Positions 22,875 through 58,019 of a stretch of 64,000 nt of DNA are shown here, in pieces. The stretch comes from Elusimicrobiota bacterium (GTDB lineage Bacteria > Elusimicrobiota > Elusimicrobia > FEN-1173). Each line of letters starts with the position of its first letter. Position 1 is the stretch's first letter. Where the stretch lies: positions 1,967,225-2,031,224 of the forward strand of contig JADKHR010000001.1 in the NCBI GenBank assembly GCA_016721625.1. Reading direction: 5' to 3'. The translations under genes were made by a program, and so were the position numbers. The notes under the pieces were generated by a model. That model saw only the letters and a list, made by a program, of their open reading frames with translations. It made no database searches and was not told the DNA's origin.

Positions 22875-23903
22875 ATGGAAAAGTCTTTTGTTCCCTTGGG
22901 GTGGTTGCCTCAAGAACACGTCGTCCAAATCAGCGCGGATTACGTCGAGGTTCTTGGCACCGATCGAATCGATAACGTGGAAAAACGTCTAGGTCCGTCG
23001 TATCAGGCGTACCGCGCGAACTGGACGTCACGGCCGCGATCGCAAATCGTGGGCGATTATCCCCTCCATTTGGATGTGGAATGCACGGCCGTTTGCAACC
23101 TTCGTTGCACCATGTGTCAAATCCCCTTTGATACGATGCCCTCCGGGTTGATTTCCCCAGGCCTCTTCAAGAAGATCATGGACGAAATTAAGCTGAGCAA
23201 AGCCGACCTTCCCTCCGTGAAATTTAATTTTCGCGGGGAACCCACCCTCCATCCTCAGATAGCGGAATTTGTCCGCTTGGCTCGGGAGTCGGGAATTATG
23301 GATGTCCAGTTCAACACGAACGGGACCATGCTGAACGAAAAACTTTCCAAGGACCTTATCTCCGCCGGTCTGGTGCGCATCAAATTTTCTTTGGACAGCA
23401 TGAATCCTTCCCTCTACAACAGCGTTCGGAAAGGCGCCGACTACAAAAAAACGTTAGGGCACATCCTTGATTTTTTGAGAATTCGAAATGAGCTTGGATC
23501 GGCTTTTCCTTCCGTGATGGTCCAAATGGTTTTCATGTCCATGAACCAAAATGAACTCATGGATTACATCCATTTCTGGCAGGACAAGGTCAACCGGATT
23601 GGGATTTCACGCTACCGCTCCGGCAACAATGAGTCCGGAGAGGACGCCCAGGTGAATGTTCCAGTGCAAACCGAACGGTTCCCTTGCCCCCAGCTATGGC
23701 AAAGGCTGGTCATCCTTTTTGACGGCACGGTGCTGATGTGTTGCGGAGATCACCACAGCAAAAATCCTATCGGGGATATCAAAACCCGTTCAATCCGTGA
23801 CATTTGGCACAGTCCGGAGCTCTCCGCCATGAGACGATTACATTCGGAACACCGGTATGATGAAATAGAGGCGTGCAAGGGTTGTCAAATCAACTGTCGT
23901 TGA
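22875..23903 (+). CDS. radical SAM protein with C-terminal SPASM/twitch-like Cys cluster
   Basis: CxxxCxxC motif in ...ECTAVCNLRCTMCQ...; C-terminal cysteine-rich region ...CPQLWQRLVILFDGTVLMCCGDHH...ACKGCQINC. Confidence 0.8.
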   Translation: MEKSFVPLGWLPQEHVVQISADYVEVLGTDRIDNVEKRLGPSYQAYRANWTSRPRSQIVGDYPLHLDVECTAVCNLRCTMCQIPFDTMPSGLISPGLFKKIMDEIKLSKADLPSVKFNFRGEPTLHPQIAEFVRLARESGIMDVQFNTNGTMLNEKLSKDLISAGLVRIKFSLDSMNPSLYNSVRKGADYKKTLGHILDFLRIRNELGSAFPSVMVQMVFMSMNQNELMDYIHFWQDKVNRIGISRYRSGNNESGEDAQVNVPVQTERFPCPQLWQRLVILFDGTVLMCCGDHHSKNPIGDIKTRSIRDIWHSPELSAMRRLHSEHRYDEIEACKGCQINCR

Positions 23904-23999
23904 CGGCGGGTTTTCGGGCGGAGAGAATGAGGAAAAGGTCGACGAAACATCGGTCGGGCCGGGGGTGGTGATTTGAAATTGGCGAACAGGTCGGGGGCG

Positions 24000-24572
24000 A
24001 TGAAAACGAAATACCTGGTTGGCCGGCGCGTTACGCTCGGGCTGATTTCGCTCCGGGCCGATTTGTCCCACTACGCGGATTGGGTCAATGACCGCGAAAC
24101 GACCCAATTTATGGCGGTCGGGCGGTTCCCCGTGACGCTCGGCGAATTGCGGGCCTACGTCCGCCAGTATGCCGTCGACAAAACTGGCCTCTTGCTGGGT
24201 ATTTTTCTAAATAAATCAAAACGACACATTGGAAATATCACGTTGAACGACATACAATGGAAGGATCGGCGCGCGGAGGTCGGCGTTCTCATCGGGGAGA
24301 AGCCGTTCCGCGGCAAAGGTTACGGCCGGGAGGCCATCGAGCTCATTGTCGAGCATGCGTTCGGGTGGCTTAATTTACACAAGTTGTCTTGCGGGATGGT
24401 CGAGGGCAATGAGGCCTCTCGCCGGGCATTTATGCGGATCGGTTTTAAGGAGGAAGGGTTTTTGCGCCGTCATGTTTTTGTGGACGGTTCCTACCTGGGT
24501 TGTTACCGCCTGGGTTTATTGCGGGAAGAGTATGCAAAAACATTGCAACCAAAATTGAAACGAAGGGAATAA
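24000..24572 (+). CDS. GNAT-family N-acetyltransferase
   Basis: ATG 24000 in frame of ORF 23973-24572; acetyl-CoA binding-like segment …RGKGYGREAIELIVEHAFGWLNLHKL…. Confidence 0.65.
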   Translation: MKTKYLVGRRVTLGLISLRADLSHYADWVNDRETTQFMAVGRFPVTLGELRAYVRQYAVDKTGLLLGIFLNKSKRHIGNITLNDIQWKDRRAEVGVLIGEKPFRGKGYGREAIELIVEHAFGWLNLHKLSCGMVEGNEASRRAFMRIGFKEEGFLRRHVFVDGSYLGCYRLGLLREEYAKTLQPKLKRRE

Positions 24573-24576
24573 AACC

Positions 24577-26502
24577 ATGCGGAAAATGTTTATTGCCACC
24601 GGTGACCGTCGGCTCGATTTGGGTGTTTCGCTTGAACCCGTTACGGCCTTGCGCGGCGGGTCGAATTTGGTCGCGAGTCTTAAAACGGCCGATCATACGA
24701 TTTCTATCTCGGCCACGAAGAAAGCCTACATTTGGGGGGATTTGTTTTATTTCATTAACCCGGACGGTTCCGTCCTCCCGATGAATTCAAAGGGGCGGAT
24801 CCAAAACATTTTCCGGAAACATTCCTATCGGGATATTCATCACTCGATGGAAGGCCAGTTCGTGTGCCTGCTCGCGGATTCCGAAAAGAGAAATGCCGTT
24901 ATTTTTTCCGATCGATACTCGCGCCAAGATTATTTTTACGCGGAAGAAAATAATCAATTCTACCTCAGTTCCGATCTGGATTTGTTGTTCACGTTCATTC
25001 AACCGCGCTACGACCAGAAAATGATCGCCCACATGTTTTCGGTGTATGGGTGGTATGTCCCCAAGCCGCGAACCATGTATGTGGGAGTGAACCGTTTGGC
25101 CGTTGGAGAAATTAAACATTTGGACGGGGAGATTTCAACGGAACAGGTCGAATTCAAACCTCTGCCCATCCAAGATTACACTCAAAACCACCTGGCCACG
25201 TACGAGAGTTATTTGCGGAATTCCATCAGAACCCGGGCCAACCAAAAAGGGACCACATGGGTGTCCAGTTCAAGCGGTTGGGATTCGTCCAGCTTGGTCG
25301 GCCTGTTGGCGGATGAGTTCGGTTCTGGAAAAGTCAGGATGGTCACCGGCAGTATGCTGTACTCGAAGGCGACCCATGTCATCAATTCTTTTGAAATCGA
25401 GAAGATAAAGAAAATCGGCAAATTTTTTGGAATCCGCCCCGATATTGTTCCTTTCGATTTCAAAAACCGGGCCATCGTGGATTACTGGAAGAAGGTGCTT
25501 CCATTTTATAAATCGCGTCATGTCTACACGATCGTCACCCACAATTACTCCCGCTTGTCCGAACGGCTGACGGAGTCGAACGGAGGGTCGGAAGTGGTTT
25601 TCAATGGAGAGACCTCGGATTCTTTTCACAATTTCGGGTTTTCTCAATTTGTGACATTTTTTCATACCGTCAAATCATTCACCGAATACGCCGATAAAAT
25701 GAATTGCTATCTTTTCGGACCGACTTTCTTTAAGAAAGTCCTTGATGATTCATACCTGAGCGACAAAGTGTTCCAGATTTTTCAACGAATGAAACCCGAG
25801 GTCAAGTGGGCGGGGGCGGGGGCCTCCAAGGCGGAAAAGATGCGCGCCTATTTATCTCCGTTATTCCACGGCTCAACGAGGATTCCCTTTGCGAGAATCC
25901 CCGCCAATCCGGCCCTGAAACCGTCTGTTGAGGCCCAATCCGTCCATTACATGTTTGAGTGTTTTCGGAATTTGGAATCGATGACCCCGGAAACAATGTA
26001 TTCGTGGATAATTTATCTCTACCACAGCATGCATTCCCAGGGCTCCACGGTCAATGTTCAAAAACACGCCATGGCCATGAACGGCCACGGGTGGAGATCT
26101 CCTTTTAATGATTTACGATTAATCCAACTGCTTTCACAGGCTCCCGAGTCTTGGGGACGGGGCCTCGATCTCCATCACACAAAGTATCCGCTGAAATGGT
26201 TGTTGAAAAACCGTCTTAAATTTCCGTATGAATTGCTTGAAACGGGTCCCCATTCCTATCTCTATGACGTTCTCGAGGGATTTTCTTTGACCGAGGAGAT
26301 CGTCTACCGATCGGGAGTGAGTGAATTTTTCCGTCAAACCCTCCATTCAAAGCCGTATCGAGGGTTATTGGATGATCGCACCTTCAATGTCAAATACCTG
26401 GACTCCATTGCGGATGCGTATCTGCAAAAAAAGGAGACGAAAGGCCAAGATTTCAACAATCTTGTCAGTCTGATCACTTTGTGCATGACCGGGTGGTATT
26501 GA
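24577..26502 (+). CDS. asparagine synthetase-like PP-loop ATP pyrophosphatase lacking N-terminal Cys nucleophile (possible sugar amidotransferase)
   Basis: 641-aa ORF; PP-loop-like segment ...TTWVSSSSGWDSSSLVGLL...; N-terminus MRKMFIATGD has no Cys2. Confidence 0.55.
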   Translation: MRKMFIATGDRRLDLGVSLEPVTALRGGSNLVASLKTADHTISISATKKAYIWGDLFYFINPDGSVLPMNSKGRIQNIFRKHSYRDIHHSMEGQFVCLLADSEKRNAVIFSDRYSRQDYFYAEENNQFYLSSDLDLLFTFIQPRYDQKMIAHMFSVYGWYVPKPRTMYVGVNRLAVGEIKHLDGEISTEQVEFKPLPIQDYTQNHLATYESYLRNSIRTRANQKGTTWVSSSSGWDSSSLVGLLADEFGSGKVRMVTGSMLYSKATHVINSFEIEKIKKIGKFFGIRPDIVPFDFKNRAIVDYWKKVLPFYKSRHVYTIVTHNYSRLSERLTESNGGSEVVFNGETSDSFHNFGFSQFVTFFHTVKSFTEYADKMNCYLFGPTFFKKVLDDSYLSDKVFQIFQRMKPEVKWAGAGASKAEKMRAYLSPLFHGSTRIPFARIPANPALKPSVEAQSVHYMFECFRNLESMTPETMYSWIIYLYHSMHSQGSTVNVQKHAMAMNGHGWRSPFNDLRLIQLLSQAPESWGRGLDLHHTKYPLKWLLKNRLKFPYELLETGPHSYLYDVLEGFSLTEEIVYRSGVSEFFRQTLHSKPYRGLLDDRTFNVKYLDSIADAYLQKKETKGQDFNNLVSLITLCMTGWY

Positions 26503-26550: not shown

Positions 26551-28053
26551 ATGGCCGGCATGGAAGTTGAAAAGAAGTTAATAACGAACTCGTTTTTCTA
26601 TGTTTTGCCGAAATTTGCCGGAATCGGCATTAACATAATGACGCTACCGATATTAACGAGGATTTTGAGCCCCCAGGATTTCGGGGCCGTGGCCATGGCC
26701 ACGGTGTTTTCAACCTTTGCCGTGGGGATTTTTTCATGGGGTTTGCCGATCGCGGTCCAGCGGTATTTTTTCGAATACCGAAGAGACCCCGTTCGGCTGG
26801 GTCGATATCTTTTCACGTGCCAATTTTTTCTGCACTTGGTCCTGCTCGTTTCTTCCGCGCCCATCTATATTTTCAGGAACGCCTTTTCAACGTTGTTCAT
26901 AGGAAACCCAGGGTACGGAAACGCATTTTTTACGTTTTACGTATCGACTTTTTTCTTCTTCATCCTCAACGTGTACTTAACGACGTTACAGAACTTTGAA
27001 AATGCGAAAGTCCATTCGTTTTTCACGATATTCCATGCCGTTGTTTTAGGCGGTCTCAATGTGACGTTAAGTTTTTCGTTTAAAGATTACACCGGCTTGA
27101 TGTACGCTTCAATCGCAAGTTCTTTTGGGGTCTCCGCCCTATGCACGTTATATTTTTTTAAATATTTTCGAAACGTTTTAAGTTTTGAAATGCTCAAAGA
27201 AAGTCTGGTTTACGGGGCCCAAAACATTCCGAAATCATTCACCGGTTTCATAGGGAGGTTTTTTGACAAGTACCTGATCAACAAAGTCCTCACGTTGCAG
27301 GCCGTGGGTGTTTATAACATCGGGCAGTCGCTTGGGAATTCATCGATTTCTTTATTAAACACCATATGGTCCTCTTTTCAACCCTTGTGTTATCGACAGG
27401 TGTTTGATCAGGGACCGAAGGCGAGCCGGCCCGTTGGACGATTGTTCTCCTATTTTCTCTTCGCCACCGCGAGCCCGTTGCTTCTTGTTCTATTGTTTTC
27501 TTCCGAAATCGTCCGTCTCCTGGCTCCCCCGGCCTACCAGCCCGCGGTGGACGTGATTATGATTTTTCTTTGCGCCATGTCGACGAACATATTTGGAATG
27601 TACGTAGGGGTTCAGTATGCCTACGCGAAAAAGCCGCTGTATATTGTTCTCGCCACAACGATGGGAACATTGGTCAATGTCGGCATGAATTTGTTGTTGA
27701 TTCCACGCTGGGGTTTGGTGGGGGCTTCTTTGGGGGCGTTGGTTTCCTACGCGACCATCAACGGACTGCTGACCGTTATTGGTCAGTCTCTTTATCGAAT
27801 ACATTACGAATGGGGGTTTGTGGCGTGCGTCTATGGAATCATCGGGCTCAGCACCTTGGCAGGCCTTCTAATGCGCGCCACGCAAATATCCTATGGCGTT
27901 CAACTCTGCCTTAAGATTTGCTTATTTGGTGCCTTGATCTTCGCGGGTTCCCGTTGGAAGGTCGCGACGATGGATACGGCACGAAAGATCGTCCGGTTGT
28001 TAAAACCTCAAAAGGGGCTCAGTCCGGAATTTCGCCCCGTCTCGCCTCATTAG
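26551..28053 (+). CDS. Wzx-type oligosaccharide flippase (polysaccharide biosynthesis protein, MOP superfamily)
   Basis: 500-aa very hydrophobic multi-pass membrane protein typical of Wzx/polysaccharide transporter family. Confidence 0.7.
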   Translation: MAGMEVEKKLITNSFFYVLPKFAGIGINIMTLPILTRILSPQDFGAVAMATVFSTFAVGIFSWGLPIAVQRYFFEYRRDPVRLGRYLFTCQFFLHLVLLVSSAPIYIFRNAFSTLFIGNPGYGNAFFTFYVSTFFFFILNVYLTTLQNFENAKVHSFFTIFHAVVLGGLNVTLSFSFKDYTGLMYASIASSFGVSALCTLYFFKYFRNVLSFEMLKESLVYGAQNIPKSFTGFIGRFFDKYLINKVLTLQAVGVYNIGQSLGNSSISLLNTIWSSFQPLCYRQVFDQGPKASRPVGRLFSYFLFATASPLLLVLLFSSEIVRLLAPPAYQPAVDVIMIFLCAMSTNIFGMYVGVQYAYAKKPLYIVLATTMGTLVNVGMNLLLIPRWGLVGASLGALVSYATINGLLTVIGQSLYRIHYEWGFVACVYGIIGLSTLAGLLMRATQISYGVQLCLKICLFGALIFAGSRWKVATMDTARKIVRLLKPQKGLSPEFRPVSPH

Positions 28054-28073: not shown

Positions 28074-29077
28074 TTGGGTCGTCAAAAATTTCAATTTCCG
28101 CTCCTCATCGCAGAGGTTGCCAATTCACACGGGGGTTCTCGTCCGTATCTTTTCCAACTGACCAAGAGGCTGCTGGCTACGAGCGTCCCTGCCGTTAAAT
28201 TTCAATGCATCGTGGCGGATGATTTTTTGACCCCCGCTCACCCCCAATACGAGCTATTCAAGTCCTTTGAATTTCCGCCGACCGTATTTTCCACGCTGGT
28301 GCGGCTCATCCATGGGGCAAGGAAAAAGGCGTATTTTGACGTTTTCGGCGACATCTCGTTGGCGGCGGCGGATCGGGTCGGCGCCGACGGTTTTAAAATC
28401 TATGCCAGCGACATCGGCAATAATCCTTTCATTGAAAAGGTCCTCTCGATCGGAAAGCCGGTCTTGATCTCAGTGGGGGAGCGACGCTGAGCGAAATCGA
28501 CGAGATTGTTAAAATATGTTCGGGAAAACAGTTCTGTCTCTTGGTGGGGTTTCAAGCGTTCCCTACTCCGATCGAGGAATCCAACGTGGGGAAAATTAAA
28601 TTCCTAAGAGAACGATACGGTTGTTCCGTCGGATACATGGATCATTCTCCGGCCATTGACCCTTTCTCGGAATTTGTCCCTTGTTTGGCGGTTGGGCAAG
28701 GGGCCTGTTGCATCGAAAAACACGCGTATCTTAAAGCCAGGAAGACCTTGTATGATTGGCAATCGGCGTTCGACCCCTCCCAGTTTGAAACGCTCGCTCA
28801 CCGCCTTAAGAAGGCTCAGTCCGCGTTGGGGACAACGTTCTTTCCCCTTTCTTCTTCTGAACAGGCTTACTCCCGCTCAAAGCGGAAAATCATTGTCGCG
28901 GCCGATCCGATCGACCAAGGAGTTCGGATCCTCCCCAAGAACATCATGGGCCGATGCGCCCATCTTTCTTCGAGGACCTCGTTTTTCACACTCAACCAGT
29001 CCGGCCACGTGGTCGGTCGAGTGGCTCGAAAAAATATCCAACGGTTCGAGGTGATCTCGCCGGACATTTTAAGATGA
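28074..29077 (+). CDS. NeuB-family nonulosonate/ulosonate synthase paralog 1 (one frame change)
   Basis: TTG 28074 after AGGGAGA RBS; N-terminal ...PLLIAEVANSHGGS...AVKFQ...; continues after a frame change at ~28470 (ISVG / GGATLSEIDEIVKICSGKQFCLLVGFQAFPTP...MDHS...IEKH...). Confidence 0.7.
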
Positions 29078-29811
29078 AAGAGATTATTGGGTTGGTCGCC
29101 GTGCGCATGGCTTCCAGGCGGCTCCCAAAAAAGGCTTTTCGGACCATCGCTGGAAAACCGATTCTTCGAATCCTCGTGGACCGGTTACGAACATCGGGAC
29201 TCGATGATTTTGTGGTTTGCACCACCACCGCGGACGAGGACAAAGAGATAGAATCATGGTGTTCCTCCAACGGGGTCCGCTGTTTTCGCGGTGATTCGGA
29301 CAATGTGCTGAGGCGGTTTGTCCGCTGTGTCTCGACAAACCCCGCCGCGTATATCGTCCGAATTACGGGAGACAATCCTTTTACCGATTTTCTGTCCATG
29401 CGGGAGATGTTCGTCGAGATGAAACAAAACAAGGCCGATTACGCCCGGCAGGTGGGTGTGCCCCTGGGGGCCGCCTGTGAAATCGTTCGGACCTCCGCCC
29501 TGGAAGAGCTTCACCGGCGCGCCCGCACGCCCGAACTAAGCGAGTTCATGACCTACTTTTTCGAGCTCGCTCCTTTTATACGGAAGCAGTTCTTCCATGT
29601 GCCGGAAAATATTCGGATGCCGCAATTGCGGCTGACCATCGATTATGAATCGGATGTCCAATTCGCGAACGCTCTCGTCGATCATTTTCATGGTCGGATT
29701 CCCTCGTTGGAGGAAATTGTTTCCCACTGCGTTCAACGGTCGGATTATCCGCTCGTGAAAGAAGATGCGGCGGCTTCGGATGAAATTAAAAAGAAGATAC
29801 TCATTGATTAA
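29074..29811 (+). CDS. cytidylyltransferase (CTP_transf_3 / SpsF-PseF-like CMP-sugar synthetase)
   Basis: ATG overlaps previous stop (ATGA); MKEIIGLVAVRMASRRLPKKAFRTIAGKPIL... and ...RITGDNPF... motifs. Confidence 0.7.
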   Translation: MKEIIGLVAVRMASRRLPKKAFRTIAGKPILRILVDRLRTSGLDDFVVCTTTADEDKEIESWCSSNGVRCFRGDSDNVLRRFVRCVSTNPAAYIVRITGDNPFTDFLSMREMFVEMKQNKADYARQVGVPLGAACEIVRTSALEELHRRARTPELSEFMTYFFELAPFIRKQFFHVPENIRMPQLRLTIDYESDVQFANALVDHFHGRIPSLEEIVSHCVQRSDYPLVKEDAAASDEIKKKILID

Positions 29812-29823
29812 TGGGGGAGCCTG

Positions 29824-30881
29824 ATGGGTGGAATTCGGTTCCAACACGGCGCCGCTATCGGCGACGGGGTTCACTGTTTCATCATGCTCGACGCGGGGGT
29901 CAATCACAACAACGATGTCGGGCGAGCCAAAGAACTTATTCGATCCGCCAAGGCCGGAGGCGCGGACGCTATTAAATTCCAGACCTACAGTGCGGAGGAG
30001 ATCAGCACGAAAAAAGCCGCTCGGTATTGGGATCCGAAACTGGACACGGACGGGGGGGGGACCCAATTCGAAATGTTCGCGCGGGTGGATGACTTGCCGA
30101 AAAAGCGTATTTTGGACTCAAAGAGTATGCCCAGGAACAAGGGATCCTTTTTTCTTCATCCCCTTTCGGCATGGACAGCGCCCGATTTTTGAAGAAACTG
30201 GGGGTCGATTTCTTTAAGATCGCCTCAGCGGAGATTACAAACTTGCACCTGATTGAATTCATCGCCGACTGCGGAAAGCCGATTGTTCTGTCGACGGGGG
30301 CGGCCTCCATTGGGGAAGTGGAGAAAGCCATTGACGTCATTCACCGGACAGGCCTTCGAGAGATCGCGCTTCAGCATTGCGTGCTGAGTTATCCGTGCAA
30401 GGATGATGACGCGAATCTGGCCAAAATGGTCCGGTTGAAGCAGATTTTTCCGGACATCCCCATCGGGTATTCCGACCATACCTTTGGGGCGGAAGTGCCG
30501 TTGGCTGCGGTGGCGTTGGGGGCGCGTTCGATTGAAAAGCATTACACCTTGGACAGCCGTCTCCCCGACAGTCCCGATCATAAATTCGCCCTGACGAGCG
30601 ACGAACTGGGGGATTTCGTAAAACGTTGTCGGAGGGTGGAAAAATCAATCGGCACCTACCGGAGCGGACATTACGCGGCGGAGGAGAAAGCCTATCAACT
30701 CGCACGCAAGAGCCTGGTGGCCGTCCGTCGAATTAAGAAGGGCGAAAGGATCACGGATCGAGCCGTTTCCTGCAAGCGGCCCGGGACCGGCATTTACCCC
30801 GAGTTTTTGGGGGTCATCGTGGGGAGAACGGCCAAAAAAAACATCGAACCGGACGAGCTACTCTCGTGGGACATGTTTTAG
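29824..30881 (+). CDS. NeuB-family nonulosonate/ulosonate synthase paralog 2 (one frame change)
   Basis: N-terminal ...CFIMLDAGVNHNNDVGRAKELIRSAKAGGADAIKFQTY...; frame change at ~30101 (A5 run; one more A gives ...LPKKAYFGLKEYAQEQGILFFSSPFGMDS...); middle ...GKPIVLSTGAASIGEVEKAIDVI...GYSDHT...IEKHYTLD... Confidence 0.7.
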
Positions 30882-30982
30882 AAGGATCCTCATGGGCTTT
30901 GGGTTCTCTCGTTCCGGCGGGATGGGTCGTTCGCGGCGTTTAAAATATTCAACGAATTCTAACGTTGCCTTTTGGAGCCAAA

Positions 30983-31978
30983 ATGAAAAACATGTTTGAG
31001 GGGAAAACCGTTTTGGTCACGGGGGGGACGGGATCTTTCGGGAAGATGTTTACGTCGATTTTCCTGAAGCGGTTTCGCCCCGAGAAACTGATTATCTTCA
31101 GTCGGGACGAGTACAAACAATCTGAAATGGCAAAAACGTTTCCCATCGAGAAGTTTCCCGTGAGGTATTTCATCGGAGACGTCCGGGATCACGACCGGTT
31201 ATTCCGCGCGTTCGATGGGGTGGATTATGTCGTGCATGCGGCGGCGCTTAAGCAAGTGCCGGCTCTTGAATACAATCCCACCGAGGCGGTGAAGACCAAC
31301 GTCACCGGGGCGGACAACATCGTCGAAGCGGCCGTGGATCGAGGGGTAAAAAAGGTGATCGCTCTCTCCACCGACAAGGCCGTCAACCCCATCAATCTTT
31401 ACGGGGCGACGAAACTTGTGGCGGAAAAGATTTTCGTCGCCGCCAACGCATACACCGGGAATAAGACCAAATTCTCGGTGGTGCGTTACGGGAACGTCGT
31501 CGGTTCCCGGGGAAGCGTTATTCCCTTGTTTGCCGATCTTAAGAAACGGGGCGTGAAGGAGTTCCCCATCACCGATGAGAAAATGACTCGATTTTGGATC
31601 GGTTTGGGGGCAGGGGTTGACCTCGTTTTGCGTGCGCTCGAAGAGGCCGAAGGCGGCGAACTTTTTGTGCCCCGCATCCCCTCCATGAGGATAACCGACT
31701 TGGCGCGGGCTGTGGATCCGGAGTGCACGTTTAAGAAGTTGGGCATACGTCCAGGGGAAAAACTGCATGAAACCCTCATTTCCGAAGACGAGGCGCGAAG
31801 CACAAAACAAGTCGGTGATTTCTACGTCGTTTTGCCGCAGTTCATGATCAGCGCCGCCCTCGATTCAAAATATGATCCGTTCGAATTCGTGAAAAATGTT
31901 TTTTCCTACCGGAGCGATACCAACGATCGGTGGCTCGATATCGCGTCTTTAACCGCGATGATTTCGCAGAATGAATAG
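30983..31978 (+). CDS. pseB: UDP-N-acetylglucosamine 4,6-dehydratase (inverting), PseB/FlaA1-type SDR
   Basis: MKNMFEGKTVLVTGGTGSFGK... N-terminus, YGATK catalytic motif, ~330 aa; followed by DegT aminotransferase. Confidence 0.8.
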   Translation: MKNMFEGKTVLVTGGTGSFGKMFTSIFLKRFRPEKLIIFSRDEYKQSEMAKTFPIEKFPVRYFIGDVRDHDRLFRAFDGVDYVVHAAALKQVPALEYNPTEAVKTNVTGADNIVEAAVDRGVKKVIALSTDKAVNPINLYGATKLVAEKIFVAANAYTGNKTKFSVVRYGNVVGSRGSVIPLFADLKKRGVKEFPITDEKMTRFWIGLGAGVDLVLRALEEAEGGELFVPRIPSMRITDLARAVDPECTFKKLGIRPGEKLHETLISEDEARSTKQVGDFYVVLPQFMISAALDSKYDPFEFVKNVFSYRSDTNDRWLDIASLTAMISQNE

Positions 31979-31990
31979 GGCCCTCTTTCC

Positions 31991-33133
31991 TTGATCCCTT
32001 ACGGAAAGCAATCGGTCACCCGTGCGGATGTGCAGGCGGTGGCCTCCGCCCTTCGTTCGGACTGGCTGACCCAGGGTCCTCGGGTGGGCGATTTTGAAAA
32101 AGCGTTGTGCCGCTACACCGGAGCGCGCCACGCCGTGGCGGTTTCAAGCGGCACCGCCGCGTTGCATCTCGCGATGCTTTCTCTGGGGGTCGGTCCCGGG
32201 GAAACCATCCTCACTTCCCCCATCACTTTTGCGGCGAGCGCCAACTGCGCGTGTTATGTCGGGGCGCGACCGCATTTTATCGATATTGACCCTAAAACCT
32301 ACCAGATGAGCGCGGAACGCCTGGAGGAGTATCTCCGGGTTGAATCTCGCAGGAGAAAAGTGCGAGTCATTATCCCTGTGCATTTTATGGGGACGGTTCC
32401 GGACGTCCGGGCGTATTCCCAAATCGGCGCGCGCTACGGCATTCCCGTTGTGGAAGATGCGGCACACGCTCTGGGGGCGGCCTATGAGCACAAAGGAGCC
32501 CAGGTTCGCGTTGGTTCTGGCTTTCATGCCGATGTGAGTATTTTAAGTTTCCATCCCATAAAACATATTACAACCGGTGAAGGCGGGGCCCTGCTCACCA
32601 ACAATAAGCGCATCTACGAACGGGCGCGTCGTATGAGGCATCATGGGATTACAAAGGACCCTTCTCGGCCGCGATGGTTTTACGATATCCCTGAGCTGGG
32701 TTACAACTATCGCCTAACGGATTTCCAGTGTGCGTTGGGGTTGTCTCAGTTGTCCCGCATTGAACAATTCCGCAAAGCGCGGTACGCGCTTGTTCAGAAA
32801 TATAATTCGGCGTTCAAAAGGATTCCGGAAATAATTCTCCCATTTGAAAGACCAGGGACAACCCCCTCTTATCATTTGTACGTCATTCAGGTCCCGCCCA
32901 AAAAGCGCCAGGCGTTGTACGACCATCTTTTTGGAAAGGGAATTGGAACGCAGGTCAACTATATCCCCGTTCACCTGTTTTCGTTTTACAAAAGACAATT
33001 CGGATATCGTCTTGGAGATTATCCGAACGCCGAGAGGTACTACCAGCGATGTTTAAGTCTGCCTTTGTTTCCTGGATTATCCTCTTCGGAACAGGAATAT
33101 ATCATCAAACAGGTCCAAGGATTTTTTCGATGA
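31991..33133 (+). CDS. pseC: DegT/DnrJ/EryC1/StrS-family sugar aminotransferase (PseC-like)
   Basis: 380-aa ORF with PLP-dependent sugar aminotransferase features (…AVSSGTAALHLAM…, …SFHPIKHITTGEGGAL…); immediately downstream of pseB. Confidence 0.7.
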   Translation: MIPYGKQSVTRADVQAVASALRSDWLTQGPRVGDFEKALCRYTGARHAVAVSSGTAALHLAMLSLGVGPGETILTSPITFAASANCACYVGARPHFIDIDPKTYQMSAERLEEYLRVESRRRKVRVIIPVHFMGTVPDVRAYSQIGARYGIPVVEDAAHALGAAYEHKGAQVRVGSGFHADVSILSFHPIKHITTGEGGALLTNNKRIYERARRMRHHGITKDPSRPRWFYDIPELGYNYRLTDFQCALGLSQLSRIEQFRKARYALVQKYNSAFKRIPEIILPFERPGTTPSYHLYVIQVPPKKRQALYDHLFGKGIGTQVNYIPVHLFSFYKRQFGYRLGDYPNAERYYQRCLSLPLFPGLSSSEQEYIIKQVQGFFR

Positions 33134-33137
33134 CGCG

Positions 33138-34016
33138 ATGTTGAACGCCGACAGGATCTGCCTCGGTACGGTCCAATTGGGTCTACCTTACGGGATCGCC
33201 AACCGGGGAGGACAACCCGACCTCCCCGCCGCTTTCTCGATCCTTGACGCCGCGCATCAAAGCGGGATCTCCCTGCTGGACACCAGCCGCGCCTACGGAA
33301 CCAGCGAGGAGGTCATTGGGTCCTTCGCCGAAAAGATGGGGAGGTCTTTCCAGGTCATTTCGAAATTGCCGCCCCATCCGAATTGTTCTCGTCTGAGCGT
33401 CTCGGGGTTTCTGAAGGAATCGTTAACCCGGTTGCGGGCCCCCTTTCTTCAAGGATACCTCATTCACGATTTCAAAACGTATCGCGACCACCCGGAAGTT
33501 TGGGATTTCCTGTTGGGACTGAAAAACGACCATCTGGTTAAACAAGTCGGTTTTTCCGTCTATTTCCCCAGAGAGGTTGAACTCTTTCTGGCGCAGGGGA
33601 TTTGCCCGGATATTGTCCAAATTCCGTTCAGTGTTTTGGATACCCGATTTGCGCCGCTCCTTTCGGAGTTGAAACAAAGGTCCGTGGAAGTTCACGCCCG
33701 ATCGGTCTTTTTGCAGGGCGCTGTATTCCTCCCGGAGGAGAAGCTGACGGGGGCTCTCCAAAAGGCGGCGGCCTCGATTCGAAGACTCCGTGAACTGTCT
33801 TCACAGACGGGGGTCCCGGTGCTCGATCTTTGCCTGCGGTTCGTGGTGGCGCACGAAACCATTGATCGGATCGTCCTGGGGGTCGATTCGGCGGCTCATT
33901 TGCGGACCAACGTCGCGGCGCTCGGAAACCCTTTTGAAGATTCCGCTCTATCGGCAGAATTACGACAACTGGCTGTGAATGAGGAGAAGGTCGTGGTTCC
34001 CTCCCTCTGGACCTGA
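33138..34016 (+). CDS. aldo/keto reductase family oxidoreductase
   Basis: 292-aa ORF; ...LGTVQLGLPYG... and ...LLDTSRAYGTSEEVIG... typical of AKR family. Confidence 0.7.
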   Translation: MLNADRICLGTVQLGLPYGIANRGGQPDLPAAFSILDAAHQSGISLLDTSRAYGTSEEVIGSFAEKMGRSFQVISKLPPHPNCSRLSVSGFLKESLTRLRAPFLQGYLIHDFKTYRDHPEVWDFLLGLKNDHLVKQVGFSVYFPREVELFLAQGICPDIVQIPFSVLDTRFAPLLSELKQRSVEVHARSVFLQGAVFLPEEKLTGALQKAAASIRRLRELSSQTGVPVLDLCLRFVVAHETIDRIVLGVDSAAHLRTNVAALGNPFEDSALSAELRQLAVNEEKVVVPSLWT

Positions 34017-34029
34017 TACAATTCGTCCC

Positions 34030-34803
34030 GTGAATACGGTCGCGATCGTCCAAGCCAGGATGTGTTCCACCCGTTTGCCGGGAAAAGTCTTATTGTCCTT
34101 GGGAGGAAAAAAGGTCTTGGAGCACGTGGTGGGAAGAATCCGCCGTGCCCGATTGGTCCGCGACGTGGTCGTCGCCACCACGATCCAGGAGGAGGATTTG
34201 GAGATCGTCAGGTTTTGCGCCGAAAACAAGATCCGCGTTTATGTGGGTTCGGAACAGGACGTTCTCGATCGTTACTATCAGGCGGCCCGGTTGTTCCACG
34301 TCGACCACGTGGTGAGAATCACGGCGGATTGTCCTGTTATCGACCCCCGCATTATCAATCGGGTGATCGCCCGCCATTTGGCCAGCCGCTCCGACCTGAC
34401 CGCCAACATACTTCGAGAAACCTTTCCCGACGGCCAGGATGTCGAGGTGTTCACTTTTTCGGCCTTATCGCGAGCATGGAAGGAGGCCAAGTTGGCCTCT
34501 CAGCGGGAGCACGTGACTCCCTACCTGAAGGACCATCCGACCCTCTTCAAGCTGACCAATGTCGCGTGCAGGGAAAACCTCGGAAAAATGAGATGGACTC
34601 TTGATAACAAGGAAGACTTTTTATTCTTGAAACATATTTTCAACGCTCTTTACGACAAAAAGAAAATATTCGGAATGGAGGATATACTCCGTTACTTGAG
34701 AACACATCCCGAAGTGGAAAAGATCAACGGACTCCTTGAGCGAAACGAGGGTTATAAGAAATCCCTCCGGCAAGACCGTCCGGTGGGAACGGAATGGCGA
34801 TAA
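34030..34803 (+). CDS. cytidylyltransferase (CTP_transf_3 family), second copy
   Basis: GTG 34030; ...NTVAIVQARMCSTRLPGKVL... and ...RITADCPVIDP... motifs. Confidence 0.7.
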   Translation: MNTVAIVQARMCSTRLPGKVLLSLGGKKVLEHVVGRIRRARLVRDVVVATTIQEEDLEIVRFCAENKIRVYVGSEQDVLDRYYQAARLFHVDHVVRITADCPVIDPRIINRVIARHLASRSDLTANILRETFPDGQDVEVFTFSALSRAWKEAKLASQREHVTPYLKDHPTLFKLTNVACRENLGKMRWTLDNKEDFLFLKHIFNALYDKKKIFGMEDILRYLRTHPEVEKINGLLERNEGYKKSLRQDRPVGTEWR

Positions 34804-34825
34804 CGAAAAAGGATGATGGGGCCCT

Positions 34826-36136
34826 ATGAACAAAACCCAATCGTTGTATAAGAAGGCCAAGGAATTAATTCCGGGGGGAACCCAGCTGTTTTCAAAACGG
34901 CCGGAACTCTACTCTCCCGGTTTATGGCCGGCCTATTTTTCCAAGGCGCGCGGTTGTCTCGTTTGGGATCTTGATGGAAAATGCTACGTCGACATGGCGT
35001 CCATGGGAATCGGATCCTGTCTTCTGGGTTATGCAGATCCGGACGTAAATGCGGCCGTTTCCAGGGTGGTGCGCGCCGGGAACATGAGCACGCTGAACGC
35101 CCCGGAAGATGTGGAATTGGCCAAACTCTTGGTATCTTTGCACCCGTGGGCGGACATGGCGCGATTTGGGCGCGGCGGCGGCGAAGCCATGTCGATGGCC
35201 GTGCGGATTGCCCGCGCGAGGACGGGGCGCGACCGAGTATTGTTCTGCGGTTACCACGGATGGCATGATTGGTATTTGGCCGCCAATGTGGCTGATAAAA
35301 AATCTCTGGACGGACATCTCCTTCCCGGCTTGAACCCCGCGGGTGTCCCTCGCGCTCTTCGGGGAACGGCCGTTCCGTTCACCTACAATGACACCGTTGG
35401 TTTTAGGAAACTCATCAAAGATGGAAAACGAAAAATCGGCGCGGTTATTCTTGAATCCATTCGCGGAGTGAAACCCGAAGGCGGTTTCCTGGCCGCCGTT
35501 CAAGAGGAGACTCGCGCCATCGGCGCTGTGTTAATTGTGGATGAAATAACCGCCGGTTTTCGGCTGACCGTCGGCGGAGCGCACTTACTCTTTAAGCTTA
35601 AACCCGATTTAGCGGTGTTCGCCAAGGGGATGAGCAACGGGTACCCCATGTCCGCCGTGATCGGGGTCGCGGACGTTATGCAGGCCGCCCAGGATTCCTT
35701 TGTGAGCAGTACCTATTGGACGGAAAGAATAGGGCCGAGCGCGGCCATCGCGACCATAAACAAGATCAAACACCTCCACATCCCGGGAAGGCTCTGCCGG
35801 ATCGGCAGGGAAGTGCAGGCCGGATGGAAGACCGCGGCTCACCGGCACGGGGTGGATATCTCCGTGGCCGGAATGGATTCGCTTTGCCACTTCAGCTTTA
35901 ACCGGGGGGATCCTTTACTGCTGAAGACGCTTTTCACGCAATTCATGCTGGAAGAGGGATTCCTCGCATCGAACGCGTTCTATGCGAGTTTTGCGCATAA
36001 GGAAAAACATATCGGGAACTATTTGGCCTCCGCCGATAAAGCCTTTTTCAAAATAGGGAAAGCCTTGCGAAGCGGCACGGAACGCTCCCTGCTACGCGGT
36101 CCGATTTGCACGAGCGGTTTCAAACGGTTGACGTGA
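34826..36136 (+). CDS. class-III (glutamate-1-semialdehyde aminomutase-like) PLP-dependent aminotransferase
   Basis: 436-aa ORF; ...GGTQLFSKRP...; ...LIVDEITAGFRLTVGGAHLLFKLKPDLAVFAKGMSNGYPMSAV... Confidence 0.75.
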   Translation: MNKTQSLYKKAKELIPGGTQLFSKRPELYSPGLWPAYFSKARGCLVWDLDGKCYVDMASMGIGSCLLGYADPDVNAAVSRVVRAGNMSTLNAPEDVELAKLLVSLHPWADMARFGRGGGEAMSMAVRIARARTGRDRVLFCGYHGWHDWYLAANVADKKSLDGHLLPGLNPAGVPRALRGTAVPFTYNDTVGFRKLIKDGKRKIGAVILESIRGVKPEGGFLAAVQEETRAIGAVLIVDEITAGFRLTVGGAHLLFKLKPDLAVFAKGMSNGYPMSAVIGVADVMQAAQDSFVSSTYWTERIGPSAAIATINKIKHLHIPGRLCRIGREVQAGWKTAAHRHGVDISVAGMDSLCHFSFNRGDPLLLKTLFTQFMLEEGFLASNAFYASFAHKEKHIGNYLASADKAFFKIGKALRSGTERSLLRGPICTSGFKRLT

Positions 36137-41761: not shown

Positions 41762-42793
41762 ATGGCGTCGCTGGGCGCCGTCCTCGTTAAGGGACCGATG
41801 CCCCCACCCAAGCCCCCTTTGTTTGGGGAATCCATCACGATGGCGGTGGTCATCCCGGCCTATAACGCGGAGGACTTTATTGCCCGTTGTTTGGAGAGCG
41901 TTTACTCTCAATCCCGGCCTCCTGACGAAATCATTGTGGTGGACGACGGGTCCACCGATCATACGCCCGATTTGCTTGAAAAGGGGGGAGGTCGAGTAAA
42001 AGTCCTTCGCACCCGAAACAACGGATTGGCGGCCGCGCGAAATGCGGGGTTTTCTCTAACCCAATGCCGATACGTGGCGTTCCTTGACGCCGATGACTAT
42101 TGGCCGTCTCATAAGTTGGAAGTTTACAATGATTACGCCCGCCGTTATCCCCGGGTGGGTTTGTTTTACAGCGATTATTATTGTTTTAGGTCAGAGAAAG
42201 TGTATCGCCGCGTTCGCGCGGGGGCTCCAGGCTCAAACCCCTTCTTCCAAATGTTAAAATACAATTGCGTGGCTTCCTCCGCCGCCATGGTCGACAGGGA
42301 TGTCTGGCAACGTGTGGGGGGGCTCCGAGGAGGCTTCTCTCATCCCGCCGGGGTGGTGGATTGGGATTTCTTTCTGAAAGCCGCGCAAGTGACGCCCTTT
42401 CAGTATATTCCCGAGCCCCTTATGTTCTACCGGGTGCACGAAAAAAGCGCGATGCAGACGAGGCAGGAAGCCATGTGGAAAGATTCCGTCCGCGTGGTCC
42501 TTTGGCATTCAAAAAACAATTCTGTTCCGCTCCAAGTGAAAAAGGAGGCCCTCGCGGCCCTCTTTTATCAAAGCGGTCTGCGGTGGTTGACGGCTGGATT
42601 TCCGAAAAAGGCCCGCGATCATTTTTTTCGCAGTCTGAGGTTTTCTTTTGGATCTTCCCCGAGCGCCGTTCTTTTTTTGGTTTCCCTGGGTGGGGCGAGA
42701 GTCATTTCTTCATTGTTGGCCCTCCGTCGTTACCTGTCTCGACTGTTCACTCTGGTTTCAAAATCCAACGATGGGTCACGGGGATGGAGTTGA
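41762..42793 (+). CDS. glycosyltransferase family 2
   Basis: ...MAVVIPAYNAEDFI..., ...IIVVDDGSTDHT..., ...FLDADD...; possible true start at ATG 41840. Confidence 0.75.
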   Translation: MASLGAVLVKGPMPPPKPPLFGESITMAVVIPAYNAEDFIARCLESVYSQSRPPDEIIVVDDGSTDHTPDLLEKGGGRVKVLRTRNNGLAAARNAGFSLTQCRYVAFLDADDYWPSHKLEVYNDYARRYPRVGLFYSDYYCFRSEKVYRRVRAGAPGSNPFFQMLKYNCVASSAAMVDRDVWQRVGGLRGGFSHPAGVVDWDFFLKAAQVTPFQYIPEPLMFYRVHEKSAMQTRQEAMWKDSVRVVLWHSKNNSVPLQVKKEALAALFYQSGLRWLTAGFPKKARDHFFRSLRFSFGSSPSAVLFLVSLGGARVISSLLALRRYLSRLFTLVSKSNDGSRGWS

Positions 42794-47137: not shown

Positions 47138-47143
47138 CCCATC

Positions 47144-58011: not shown

Positions 58012-58019
58012 CTTTTGGT

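What the first reader, a model, noticed from the sequence alone, without database searches (positions are those of the whole stretch)
28074..30881. NeuB - cytidylyltransferase - NeuB cassette: three NeuB-family synthases in one locus
Two NeuB-like synthases (28074-29077 and 29824-30881) flank a CMP-sugar-type cytidylyltransferase, and a third (pseI-like, 44318-45417) sits 14 kb downstream beside pseG/H. The three copies differ clearly in sequence (active-site neighbourhoods PLLIAEVANSHGGS, CFIMLDAGVNHNND, VYIVAEMSANHGGD), arguing for distinct substrates rather than recent duplication. Multiple ulosonic acid products from one locus would be unusual.
Basis: partly seen in the sequence, partly recalled or inferred. 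Interest (0 to 1): 0.6.

Follow-up and report, generated by a model that had tools for sequence, protein, structure and literature searches.

The report
Three diverged NeuB sugar-acid synthases
A surface-sugar gene island in an uncultured Elusimicrobiota genome carries three anciently diverged NeuB-type synthases (enzymes that build sialic-acid-like sugars). One is an ordinary pseudaminic acid synthase, and the other two form a conserved but uncharacterised synthase–cytidylyltransferase–synthase cassette. The frame breaks in all three genes look like sequencing errors.

Summary
Three NeuB-family genes lie at 28074-29077, 29824-30881 and 44318-45417, and a CTP_transf_3 cytidylyltransferase (29074-29811) sits between the first two.

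Each gene has one single-base deletion. The same kind of break also hits an FG-GAP gene three times, alanine racemase and pseG/H. Every orthologue is intact, so the breaks are most likely long-read assembly errors.

After correction the proteins share only 25-35% identity and fall in three robust clades.
- **NeuB3** is a canonical PseI, with PseB, PseC and a PseG-PseH fusion in the same island.
- **NeuB2** belongs to a large uncharacterised environmental clade linked to LegB-like dehydratase and NTP-transferase genes.
- **NeuB1** belongs to a very rare offshoot of a deep "GFQ-motif" subfamily. Members of that subfamily are often fused to the cytidylyltransferase, and once to a second NeuB domain as well.

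The order NeuB(GFQ/NeuB1-type) – cytidylyltransferase – NeuB2-type recurs in eight independent related loci (nine fetched), often behind a radical SAM/SPASM gene.

"Distinct substrates, not recent duplicates" is supported. "Unusual" is only partly supported, because Leptospira and Campylobacter already show several such synthases per genome or locus. I file it as a new variant of a known kind, of moderate interest.

The parts
22875..23903 (+). Radical SAM/SPASM protein. Its orthologue lies immediately upstream of the NeuB1-type gene in L002, L003, L007 and L013.
   Evidence: Pfam Radical_SAM + SPASM. TIGR04321 spiro-SPASM, C-terminal half, 94 bits. Orthologues are 44-82% identical.
23973..26502 (+). 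GNAT acetyltransferase (23973-24572) and a 641-aa asparagine-synthase-like amidotransferase (24577-26502). Both are conserved in the Elusimicrobiota-type loci.
   Evidence: Orthologues in L001 and L004-L006.
26551..28053 (+). Wzx-type polysaccharide flippase directly upstream of NeuB1.
   Evidence: Pfam Polysacc_synt and Polysacc_synt_3. Orthologues in L001 and L004-L006.
28074..29077 (+). NeuB1: a divergent NeuB-family synthase, 334 aa after adding one G to the G5 run 28475-28479. It starts at TTG. It belongs to a rare clade inside the 'GFQ-motif' subfamily.
   Evidence: (123 bits against the NeuB_NnaB cutoff of 400).
29074..29811 (+). CT1: a 245-aa SpsF/KdsB-type cytidylyltransferase (CTP_transf_3). 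Its start overlaps the NeuB1 stop as ATGA.
   Evidence: Orthologues of 242-246 aa occupy the same position in L002-L007; the L001 copy is truncated to a 168-aa ORF in that assembly. The identical sequence occurs in an independent assembly, L016.
29824..30881 (+). NeuB2: NeuB + SAF synthase, 352 aa after adding one A to the A5 run 30100-30104. It has Asp in place of Glu25. It contains a G9 tract at 30052-30060. It belongs to a large uncharacterised environmental clade.
   Evidence: (331 bits, below the 400 cutoff).
30965..33133 (+). PseB (30965-31978) and PseC (31991-33133).
   Evidence: NCBIfam equivalogs above cutoff: PseB 485.6 against 407.75, PseC 460.1 against 423.5.
33138..36136 (+). Aldo/keto reductase (33138-34016), second cytidylyltransferase CT2 (ORF 33979-34803, probable GTG start at 34033) and a class-III aminotransferase (34826-36136). 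This trio is conserved.
   Evidence: The CT + Aminotran_3 pair is also found next to a NeuB2-type gene in L010.
42784..44321 (+). PseG-PseH fusion, 512 aa after adding one G at the G3 run 42961-42963.
   Evidence: The corrected protein scores 181.4 bits against the PseG cutoff of 153.55. GNAT/PseH-like C-terminal domain.
44318..45417 (+). NeuB3 = PseI, pseudaminic acid synthase, 366 aa after adding one base between 45021 and 45022.
   Evidence: TIGR03586 PseI 476 bits against the 340 cutoff. Groups with C. jejuni PseI in 181/200 bootstraps. Has F133 and S184, the Pse-type residues.
45414..48052 (+). LegB-like NAD-dependent 4,6-dehydratase (45414-46391, ATGA overlap with the PseI stop), sugar-1-phosphate nucleotidyltransferase (46388-47137) and an SDR epimerase/reductase (47144-48052). 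This gene set accompanies NeuB2-type synthases in other genomes.
   Evidence: (TIGR04180 414.6 bits, cutoff 475). Orthologues of the dehydratase (45-50% identical) and the nucleotidyltransferase (32-36%) lie next to NeuB2-type genes in L002, L003, L009 and L013; in L007 only the dehydratase orthologue falls within the contig.

Best explanation
**Setting.** The window holds a low-GC surface-polysaccharide island of about 35 kb from an uncultured Elusimicrobiota genome. It encodes three functional, anciently diverged NeuB-family enzymes. Each condenses phosphoenolpyruvate with a different free aldose to give a different 2-keto-3-deoxy sugar acid of the sialic acid type.

**NeuB3** is a canonical pseudaminic acid synthase. 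It is fed by PseB, PseC and a PseH/PseG fusion in the same island.

**NeuB2** belongs to a widespread uncharacterised environmental clade. Its steady partners are a LegB-like 4,6-dehydratase, a sugar-1-phosphate nucleotidyltransferase, an epimerase and a PseG-like hydrolase. It probably makes a legionaminic-type or other 9-deoxy sugar acid (inferred).

**NeuB1** belongs to a rare, fast-evolving offshoot of a deep NeuB subfamily with the motif GFQ in place of HC(T/V)x. Members of that subfamily are often fused to a CTP_transf_3 cytidylyltransferase. Its product is therefore most likely CMP-activated directly by the translationally coupled CT1 (inferred). Its sugar substrate is unknown.

**The cassette.** NeuB1 – CT1 – NeuB2, often with a radical SAM/SPASM gene, is a conserved module. 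The island therefore probably supplies two or three different CMP-activated sugar acids to the Wzx-dependent glycan.

**The frame breaks.** The single-base breaks in all three genes are assembly errors at short homopolymers, not biology.
For: **Identity of the genes**
- Pfam and NCBIfam assignments.

**The enzymes look competent**
- The catalytic and metal-binding residues are kept in all three once the frame is corrected, apart from conservative E134D (NeuB1) and E25D (NeuB2) changes.
- The AF2 model of a NeuB1 orthologue (pLDDT 82.6) has the NeuB fold over its full length, including the C-terminal domain.

**They are separate lineages**
- Three clades, each supported in 181-200 of 200 bootstraps, at 25-35% identity.
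- Clade-specific residues at the specificity positions Nm133 and Nm184: S/Q in NeuB1, A/L in NeuB2, F/S in NeuB3 (PMC7371886).

**The cassette is conserved and intact elsewhere**
- Seen in L001-L007 and L013.
- Natural fusions exist: NeuB-CTase, NeuB-CTase-GT2 and NeuB-NeuB-CTase.
- NeuB2-type genes sit with LegB-like, NTP-transferase, PseG-like and CTase genes in L002, L008, L009 and L013.

**The breaks look like errors**
- All are one-base deletions at short runs or run boundaries, verified against orthologue DNA.
- The same kind of break occurs three times in an FG-GAP gene and once in alanine racemase.
- Conservation is equal upstream and downstream of the breaks: 71/71% for NeuB1 and 81/82% for NeuB2.
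- The source is a single 2.76-Mb contig of a metagenome-assembled genome.

**Precedent**
- SpsE/SpsF/SpsG-type legionaminic acid synthesis in B. subtilis (PMC7439481).
Against: - There are no biochemical data. The substrates of NeuB1 and NeuB2 are inferred from gene neighbourhoods only.
- Only two cytidylyltransferases are present in the window for three synthases. No LegC-, LegG- or NeuC-type gene was seen.
- NeuB1 has lost the conserved SAF-domain arginine (Nm R314), which is essential in N. meningitidis NeuB.
- GFQ/NeuB1-type synthases were never seen without a second NeuB gene in the same locus, in 13 of 13 loci with enough context. This hints at dependence rather than an independent pathway.
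- All three NeuB genes being hit by random errors is a notable coincidence. At roughly 1 break per 6-7 kb the chance is well under 1%.
- No independent assembly covering the break sites could be found.
Confidence: 0.6

Rival explanations
1. NeuB1 and NeuB2 do not run separate pathways. They work together, with CT1 and the radical SAM/SPASM enzyme, in one pathway. They could form an obligate heterodimer: NeuB enzymes are domain-swapped dimers in which the partner's SAF domain supplies an active-site arginine. Or they could act in sequence on one growing molecule, giving a single unusual sugar acid.
For: - The gene order NeuB(GFQ/N1) – CTase – NeuB(N2) is strictly conserved across phyla.
- A natural 963-aa fusion joins a SpsE-like NeuB, a GFQ-type NeuB and a CTase in one protein.
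- GFQ/N1-type genes always have a second NeuB nearby, whereas N2-type genes can stand alone, as in L010.
- The NeuB1 clade has a degenerate R314, while NeuB2 keeps it.
- A radical SAM/SPASM gene is adjacent in L002, L003, L007, L013 and L015.
Against: - NeuB1 keeps its full catalytic and metal-binding set (with E134D), so it is not a mere scaffold.
- Most GFQ-type enzymes keep R314 and are fused only to the CTase. One is fused to CTase plus a GT2 transferase. That fits a self-contained line of make, activate and transfer.
- Most loci carry a second cytidylyltransferase, consistent with two separate products.
- The product of a NeuB reaction is a keto acid, not an aldose, so it is not an obvious substrate for a second NeuB.
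Confidence: 0.2
2. The frame breaks are real. This strain has inactivated its sialic-acid-like sugar pathways (NeuB1, NeuB2, PseG/H and PseI are pseudogenes), for example under phage or predator pressure on the surface glycan.
For: - Four breaks within the 17-kb stretch studied in detail (28-45 kb) fall in genes of these pathways, including all three synthases. That is more than expected from the window-wide break density.
- The deposited genome carries the same fragments as separate proteins, MBL0059171.1 and MBL0059174.1.
Against: - The same one-base deletion signature hits an FG-GAP gene three times within 1 kb and also alanine racemase.
- There is no decay downstream of the breaks and no other lesions.
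- All orthologues in related loci are intact.
- The breaks sit at short homopolymers or run boundaries in a single-contig MAG, which is typical of long-read consensus error.
Confidence: 0.12
3. The breaks are phase-variation switches: slipped-strand mispairing at homopolymers turns surface-glycan genes on and off, as in the Campylobacter flagellar glycosylation genes.
For: - The breaks lie at homopolymers or run boundaries.
- NeuB2 also carries the only G9 tract in the 64-kb window, at 30052-30060.
- Homopolymer-controlled glycan genes are known in C. jejuni (PMC3068675, title and abstract).
Against: - The tracts at the breaks are only G5, A5 and G3, and there is no run at the PseI break. These are far shorter than known contingency tracts.
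- The G9 tract is in frame.
- Identical breaks occur in housekeeping and unrelated genes.
Confidence: 0.03

Closest known systems
Campylobacter jejuni NeuB1 / NeuB2 (LegI) / NeuB3 (PseI)
   Same: One genome carries three NeuB paralogues, each for a different sugar acid: Neu5Ac, legionaminic acid and pseudaminic acid (PMC7371886). From my own knowledge, LegI and PseI share the flagellar glycosylation locus.
   Different: - Here all three lie within 17 kb of a Wzx-type polysaccharide island, not a flagellin locus.
- Only one (PseI) belongs to a characterised class.
- NeuB1 and NeuB2 fail the NeuB/LegI and PseI equivalog cutoffs and lack the diagnostic G133/Y184 or F133/S184 residues.
Leptospira interrogans nonulosonic acid gene cluster (Ricaldi et al. 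2012, PMC3438082)
   Same: [quoted passage not shown] The authors took this to mean several sugar acids.
- Leptospira-named families (LIC12162, LIC13510, Lept_O_ant_chp1, spiro-SPASM) recur in the loci studied here.
   Different: - The Leptospira distant synthase carries a C-terminal phosphatase-like domain.
- There is no synthase – cytidylyltransferase – synthase cassette.
- Whether it belongs to the GFQ-motif subfamily was not tested. The solved L. borgpetersenii NeuB (6NCS) does not.
Bacillus subtilis SpsE–SpsF–SpsG legionaminic acid pathway (Dubois et al. 2020, PMC7439481)
   Same: - A NeuB-family synthase works with an SpsF-type CTP_transf_3 cytidylyltransferase and a PseG-like hydrolase.
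- SpsE (1VLI) is the best solved-structure match of NeuB2.
   Different: - NeuB2 is only about 35% identical to SpsE and forms its own clade.
- There is a second, GFQ-type synthase and a radical SAM/SPASM partner.
- The nucleotide-sugar precursors probably differ, given the LegB-like dehydratase and separate NTP transferase.
Neisseria meningitidis NeuB (1XUU/1XUZ), the mechanistic reference
   Same: TIM barrel plus swapped SAF domain. Equivalents of His215 and His236 (metal), Glu25, Glu134 and Glu234, and Lys53, Gln55 and Lys129 are present in all three proteins, with conservative D-for-E changes.
   Different: - 21-33% identity.
- The NeuB1 clade replaces N29, T110, S132, S213 and the HC(T/V)x motif, and loses R314. 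A different sugar substrate is therefore expected.

Membership tests
NeuB family of PEP-dependent sugar-acid synthases (PF03102) | Significant match to the NeuB TIM-barrel domain | tested here: met
   All three genes match. The fragments score 24.5-229 bits against a cutoff of 22.1. The corrected proteins match NCBIfam NeuB models end to end.
NeuB family of PEP-dependent sugar-acid synthases (PF03102) | Metal ligands (Nm H215, H236), catalytic acids (E25, E134, E234) and PEP ligands (K53, Q55, K129) | tested here: met
   All are present in all three proteins. NeuB1 has E134D. NeuB2 has E25D. Both are conservative changes and clade-typical.
NeuB family of PEP-dependent sugar-acid synthases (PF03102) | C-terminal SAF/antifreeze-like domain contributing Arg314 to the partner's active site | tested here: inconclusive
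   - NeuB2 and NeuB3: the SAF domain is detected and R314 is kept.
- NeuB1: Pfam SAF is not detected in the window copy. The AF2 model of an orthologue aligns over its full length to NeuB structures. However, R314 is degenerate in the clade (C, W, R or I).
NeuB family of PEP-dependent sugar-acid synthases (PF03102) | Uninterrupted reading frame | tested here: not met
   In the sequence as given, each gene has one frame break. The breaks are judged to be assembly errors, but no independent read evidence was found.
NeuB family of PEP-dependent sugar-acid synthases (PF03102) | PEP + aldose condensing activity | not testable with these tools
   Needs enzyme assays.
PseI, pseudaminic acid synthase (TIGR03586 equivalog) | Score above the curated equivalog cutoff, Pse-type F133/S184, and pseB/C/G/H in the locus | tested here: met
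   - NeuB3 scores 476 bits against a cutoff of 340, has F133 and S184, and has PseB, PseC and PseG-PseH in the island.
- NeuB1 (108 bits) and NeuB2 (267 bits) do not meet the cutoff.
NeuB/NnaB–LegI group (TIGR03569 equivalog) | Score above the curated cutoff (399.65) and the Neu/Leg-type G133 | tested here: not met
   NeuB2 scores 331 bits and has A133/L184. NeuB1 scores 123 bits and has S133/Q184. Other members of both clades also fall below the cutoff.
CMP-sugar-acid synthetases (CTP_transf_3, PF02348: KdsB, NeuA, PseF, SpsF) | Domain match, and assignment to a specific equivalog (PseF or KdsB) | tested here: inconclusive
   CT1 scores 83.8 bits against the 22.6 cutoff for the Pfam domain. 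It is far below the PseF cutoff (20.8 against 205.7) and all KdsB cutoffs. Its best solved relative is an unnamed 'cytidylyltransferase', 6OEW. Family membership is met, but specificity is unknown.
Homopolymer-controlled phase-variable (contingency) genes | A long homopolymer tract (about 8 or more bases) at the site of the frame change | tested here: not met
   The breaks lie at G5, A5 and G3 runs, and at a site with no run. The only long tract, G9 at 30052-30060, is in frame.

The most novel reading that the evidence does not exclude
The conserved module of radical SAM/SPASM, GFQ-type NeuB, cytidylyltransferase and a second NeuB is a single biosynthetic machine for a sugar acid not yet described. 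Three versions are possible: a radical-SAM-tailored CMP sugar acid, a higher-carbon sugar built by two PEP condensations, or the product of an obligate NeuB1/NeuB2 heterodimer in which NeuB2 lends the arginine NeuB1 has lost. Natural fusions of NeuB–CTase, NeuB–CTase–GT2, NeuB–NeuB–CTase and (in spirochaetes) CTase–SPASM would then all be traces of one pathway.
Probability: 0.15. Interest if true: 0.75.

Novelty: new variant of a known kind. Interest (0 to 1): 0.42.

Why it matters
Sialic-acid-like sugars shape how bacterial surfaces are seen by phages, predators and immune systems. Surveys of environmental microbes find many such sugars with no known pathway.

This locus and its relatives define an uncharacterised, phylogenetically deep NeuB subfamily with the GFQ motif, often fused to its activating enzyme. 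It always travels with a second synthase and usually with a radical SAM enzyme. That gives concrete enzyme targets for finding new sugar acids in uncultured phyla such as Elusimicrobiota and Margulisiibacteriota.

It is also a cautionary case. Three 'broken' genes in a row in a long-read genome are most likely an assembly artefact, not pseudogenes.

Tried and rejected
**Searching for an independent assembly across the break sites**
- An exact look-up of CT1 found a Logan contig (L016, 1181 nt) that is 100% identical to the window, but it ends before both break sites.
- Two metagenome pattern scans that allowed either tract length found nothing.
- A peptide search across the NeuB2 break returned only the source's own fragment.

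**A suspected further break, rejected**
- The junction at 39.85 kb looked like another frame break in the codon-frame scan. It reads as a normal ATGA stop/start overlap.
- However, TIGR04326 models a single 602-aa protein there, so this is left open.

**A suspected fusion, rejected**
- The pair 17138-17902 and 17824-18654 is two separate methyltransferases, not a split gene.

**Testing the heterodimer idea by folding the natural NeuB-NeuB-CTase fusion (P0139)**
- Abandoned. MAFFT placed all homologues on the second NeuB domain, which leaves the first domain without an alignment.

**Literature searches with no hits**
- Searches linking these synthases to radical SAM enzymes or to Elusimicrobia found nothing relevant.

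**Failed computation**
- A first tree run with Biopython BLOSUM distances timed out. It was redone with Kimura distances.
Full report
**1. What is in the sequence**

Between about 14 and 49 kb the window has lower GC (42-55%) than its flanks (58-64%). Nearly all genes there lie on the + strand.

This stretch is a surface-glycan island. It encodes:
- methyltransferases
- GT1, GT2 and GT4 glycosyltransferases
- an MBOAT acyltransferase
- a Wzx flippase
- radical SAM enzymes
- many sugar-nucleotide enzymes

The flanks hold housekeeping genes: PBP2, RodA, RNase G, AsnB, alanine racemase and glycerate kinase.

The gene between the first two is a 245-aa CTP_transf_3 cytidylyltransferase, CT1, at 29074-29811. 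Its ATG overlaps the NeuB1 stop. A tblastn search finds no fourth NeuB gene in the window.

**2. The frame breaks**

None of the three genes is a single open frame. Each needs one added base:
- NeuB1 in the G5 run at 28475-28479
- NeuB2 in the A5 run at 30100-30104
- NeuB3 between 45021 and 45022

The pseG/H fusion needs one more G at 42961-42963.

DNA alignment with intact orthologues shows a one-base gap exactly at the two runs tested, GT-GGGGG and CC-GAAAAA.

A codon-usage frame scan of the whole window, followed by three-frame reading, found the same kind of lesion elsewhere:
- three breaks within 1 kb of an FG-GAP gene (6732-6750, 7102-7125, and the G6 run in 7672-7692)
- one break in alanine racemase at a G4 run (52509-52530)
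- an in-frame stop in an MBOAT gene at a T5A4 boundary (20715-20717)

Three further points bear on whether the breaks are real:
- Conservation against orthologues is the same upstream and downstream of the breaks: 71/71% for NeuB1 and 81/82% for NeuB2.
- Every orthologue in the related loci L001-L007 is uninterrupted.
- The source is a single 2.76-Mb contig of an Elusimicrobiota metagenome-assembled genome. Its deposited proteins MBL0059171.1 and MBL0059174.1 are the fragments themselves.

I conclude, at about 85%, that these are deletion-type consensus errors of a long-read assembly.

It remains a notable coincidence that all three NeuB genes are hit. No independent assembly spanning the sites was found.

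**3. The three proteins**

After correction the proteins are 334, 352 and 366 aa long. Pairwise identity is 25% (NeuB1/NeuB2), 25% (NeuB1/NeuB3) and 35% (NeuB2/NeuB3).

*NeuB3 is a canonical PseI.*
- It scores 476 bits on the PseI equivalog, cutoff 340.
- It groups with C. jejuni PseI in 181 of 200 bootstraps.
- It has the Pse-type F133 and S184 (PMC7371886).
- Its pathway partners are in the island: PseB and PseC above their cutoffs, and a PseG-PseH fusion that passes the PseG cutoff once corrected.

*NeuB2 belongs to a large uncharacterised clade.*
- It scores 331 bits on NeuB_NnaB, below the cutoff of 400.
- Its best solved relative is B. subtilis SpsE.
- Its clade is tight (200/200 bootstraps), with more than 120 cluster representatives of about 352 aa at 50% identity or more. 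These come from many phyla and none carries a specific name.
- All canonical active-site residues are kept, including R314. The exception is E25D.
- Positions 133 and 184 are A and L, which fit none of the Neu, Leg or Pse patterns.

*NeuB1 is very divergent.*
- It scores 123 bits on NeuB_NnaB.
- It keeps E25, H30, K53, Q55, K129, D134, S154, D214, H215, E234, H236 and D247.
- It changes N29, T110, S132 and S213.
- It has GFQ where other NeuB enzymes have HC(T/V)x.
- It has a degenerate R314.
- An AF2 model of its orthologue P0003 (pLDDT 82.6) matches NeuB, PseI and SpsE structures over the full length.

**4. Where NeuB1 belongs**

An exhaustive profile search of 1.84 billion cluster representatives gave three tiers:
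- Only five NeuB1-clade representatives, at 392-573 bits.
- A gap, then one protein at 301 bits, P0139.
- More than 140 proteins at 205-270 bits.

This wider group shares the GFQ motif. It forms a supergroup with the NeuB1 clade, separate from all canonical enzymes, in 200 of 200 bootstraps.

Many members are 575-610 aa long. The four of that size scanned (P0140, P0142, P0146, P0147) all have NeuB at the N-terminus; three show a detectable CTP_transf_3 C-terminal half and three a detectable SAF domain. Other natural fusions were also found:
- P0174 is NeuB–CTase–GT2.
- P0139 is a 963-aa fusion of a SpsE-like NeuB, a GFQ-type NeuB with its SAF domain, and a CTase.

**5. A conserved module**

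The gene order NeuB(GFQ/NeuB1-type) – CTase – NeuB(NeuB2-type) recurs widely, with coupled or overlapping starts:

| Locus | Source |
|---|---|
| L001 | Elusimicrobia MAG |
| L002 | WOR-1 complete genome |
| L003 | Margulisiibacteriota |
| L004-L007 | JGI metagenomes |
| L013 | JGI metagenome |

In L013 a wider-group GFQ enzyme sits in the NeuB1 position, next to a NeuB2 orthologue that is 55% identical.

A radical SAM/SPASM gene orthologous to window 22875-23903 lies directly upstream in L002, L003, L007 and L013. A similar gene precedes the fusion in L015.

Four other loci also pair a GFQ-type NeuB with a second NeuB: L009, L011, L012 and L015.

In every locus with enough context (13 of 13, counting L004 and L005, which hold the same proteins), the GFQ/NeuB1-type gene has a second NeuB nearby. 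NeuB2-type genes can stand alone, as in L010.

NeuB2-type genes are regularly accompanied by:
- a LegB-like dehydratase, 45-50% identical to window 45414-46391
- an NTP transferase
- a 286-aa epimerase
- a PseG-like hydrolase
- a further CTase

**6. Interpretation**

The simplest reading is that the island makes several CMP-activated sugar acids of the sialic acid type:
- pseudaminic acid, through PseB, PseC, PseH, PseG and PseI
- a legionaminic-type or other 9-deoxy acid, through the NTP transferase, LegB-like dehydratase and NeuB2
- an unknown acid made by NeuB1 and activated by CT1

The NeuB–CTase and NeuB–CTase–GT2 fusions argue that the GFQ-type enzyme makes its own donor sugar.

Shown here: gene identities, clade separation, conserved active sites, conserved synteny and the fusions.

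Inferred: the substrates, which cytidylyltransferase serves which synthase, and that the genes are intact in the organism.

The main rival (about 0.2) is that NeuB1 and NeuB2 cooperate, either as a heterodimer or in sequence with the radical SAM enzyme. Three things suggest it:
- the one-sided dependence of GFQ/NeuB1-type genes on a second NeuB
- the NeuB–NeuB–CTase fusion
- the lost arginine in NeuB1

Real pseudogenisation (about 0.12) and phase variation (about 0.03) are less likely, for the reasons given in section 2.

**7. Comparison with what is known**

Several synthases per genome or locus is established:
- C. jejuni has three NeuB paralogues for three pathways (PMC7371886).
- The L. 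interrogans cluster has two synthases and two CMP-synthetases (PMC3438082).
- SpsE, SpsF and SpsG give a precedent for the type of synthase, cytidylyltransferase and hydrolase found here (PMC7439481).
- A large phylogeny of these synthases exists (PMC8208679).

I found no description of the GFQ subfamily, its CTase fusions or the dual-synthase cassette.

**8. Verdict**

- The frame breaks are probably artefacts.
- Novelty: a new variant of a known kind.
- Interest: 0.42.

Noticed in passing
window 6186-7910; 52438-53506; 20706-20724: The same one-base-deletion frame breaks occur outside the finding. An FG-GAP repeat protein is split into four ORFs by breaks at 6732-6750, 7102-7125 and the G6 run in 7672-7692. 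Alanine racemase is broken at a G4 run (52509-52530). An MBOAT gene carries an in-frame TAA at a T5A4 boundary (20715-20717). Gene calls from this assembly should be treated with care.
   Followed up: yes
window 30052-30060: A G9 tract inside NeuB2 is the longest homopolymer in the 64-kb window. It encodes the conserved Gly-Gly-Gly, where orthologues use mixed glycine codons. It is in frame here. It could be a slippage-prone site, and its length is uncertain in a long-read assembly.
   Followed up: partly
window 33138-36136; L010 12581-14709: The trio of aldo/keto reductase, cytidylyltransferase CT2 and class-III aminotransferase is conserved in L001 and L004-L006. The CT + aminotransferase pair also sits by a NeuB2-type gene in L010. 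It might be a tailoring cassette that oxidises and aminates a terminal carbon before CMP activation, by loose analogy with Kdo8N synthesis. This is my speculation.
   Followed up: partly
L011 2696-5587 (P0139); L015 10001-13138 (P0174); L012 4322-6103 (P0142): Natural multi-domain fusions exist: NeuB–NeuB–SAF–cytidylyltransferase (963 aa), NeuB–cytidylyltransferase–GT2 (1045 aa), and many NeuB–cytidylyltransferase proteins of about 590 aa. In P0139 the first, SpsE-like domain has Gly at the catalytic Glu134 position.
   Followed up: partly
window 36800-39013: A 737-aa B12-binding radical SAM protein lies in the middle of the glycan island. Its best match is the KedN5 family of C-methyltransferases (140 bits, far below the cutoff). 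Similar genes sit next to the module in L007 and L015. It could C-methylate a sugar.
   Followed up: no
window 39025-40736: Two ORFs are joined by an ATGA overlap. The second matches positions 301-557 of TIGR04326, a 602-aa Leptospira-type 'surface carbohydrate biosynthesis protein'. The pair may be a naturally split, or erroneously split, single gene.
   Followed up: partly
L007 3527-6252; L015 16346-17332: Sulfate-activation genes (an ATP-sulfurylase fusion and APS kinase) in L007, and a sulfotransferase in L015, lie beside the dual-synthase module. This hints that the glycans carrying these sugar acids are also sulfated.
   Followed up: no
window ~14000-49000: The whole glycan island has markedly lower GC (42-55%) than its flanks (58-64%). 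This is consistent with horizontal acquisition or relaxed composition of a variable surface locus. A tRNA-Asn at 57940-58012 is the only RNA gene found.
   Followed up: partly
L016 (Logan contig from run ERR8482632) = window 28807-29987: An independent public assembly holds 1181 nt that are 100% identical to the window across CT1. The same strain is therefore present in another sequencing run, whose reads could settle the frame-break question.
   Followed up: partly
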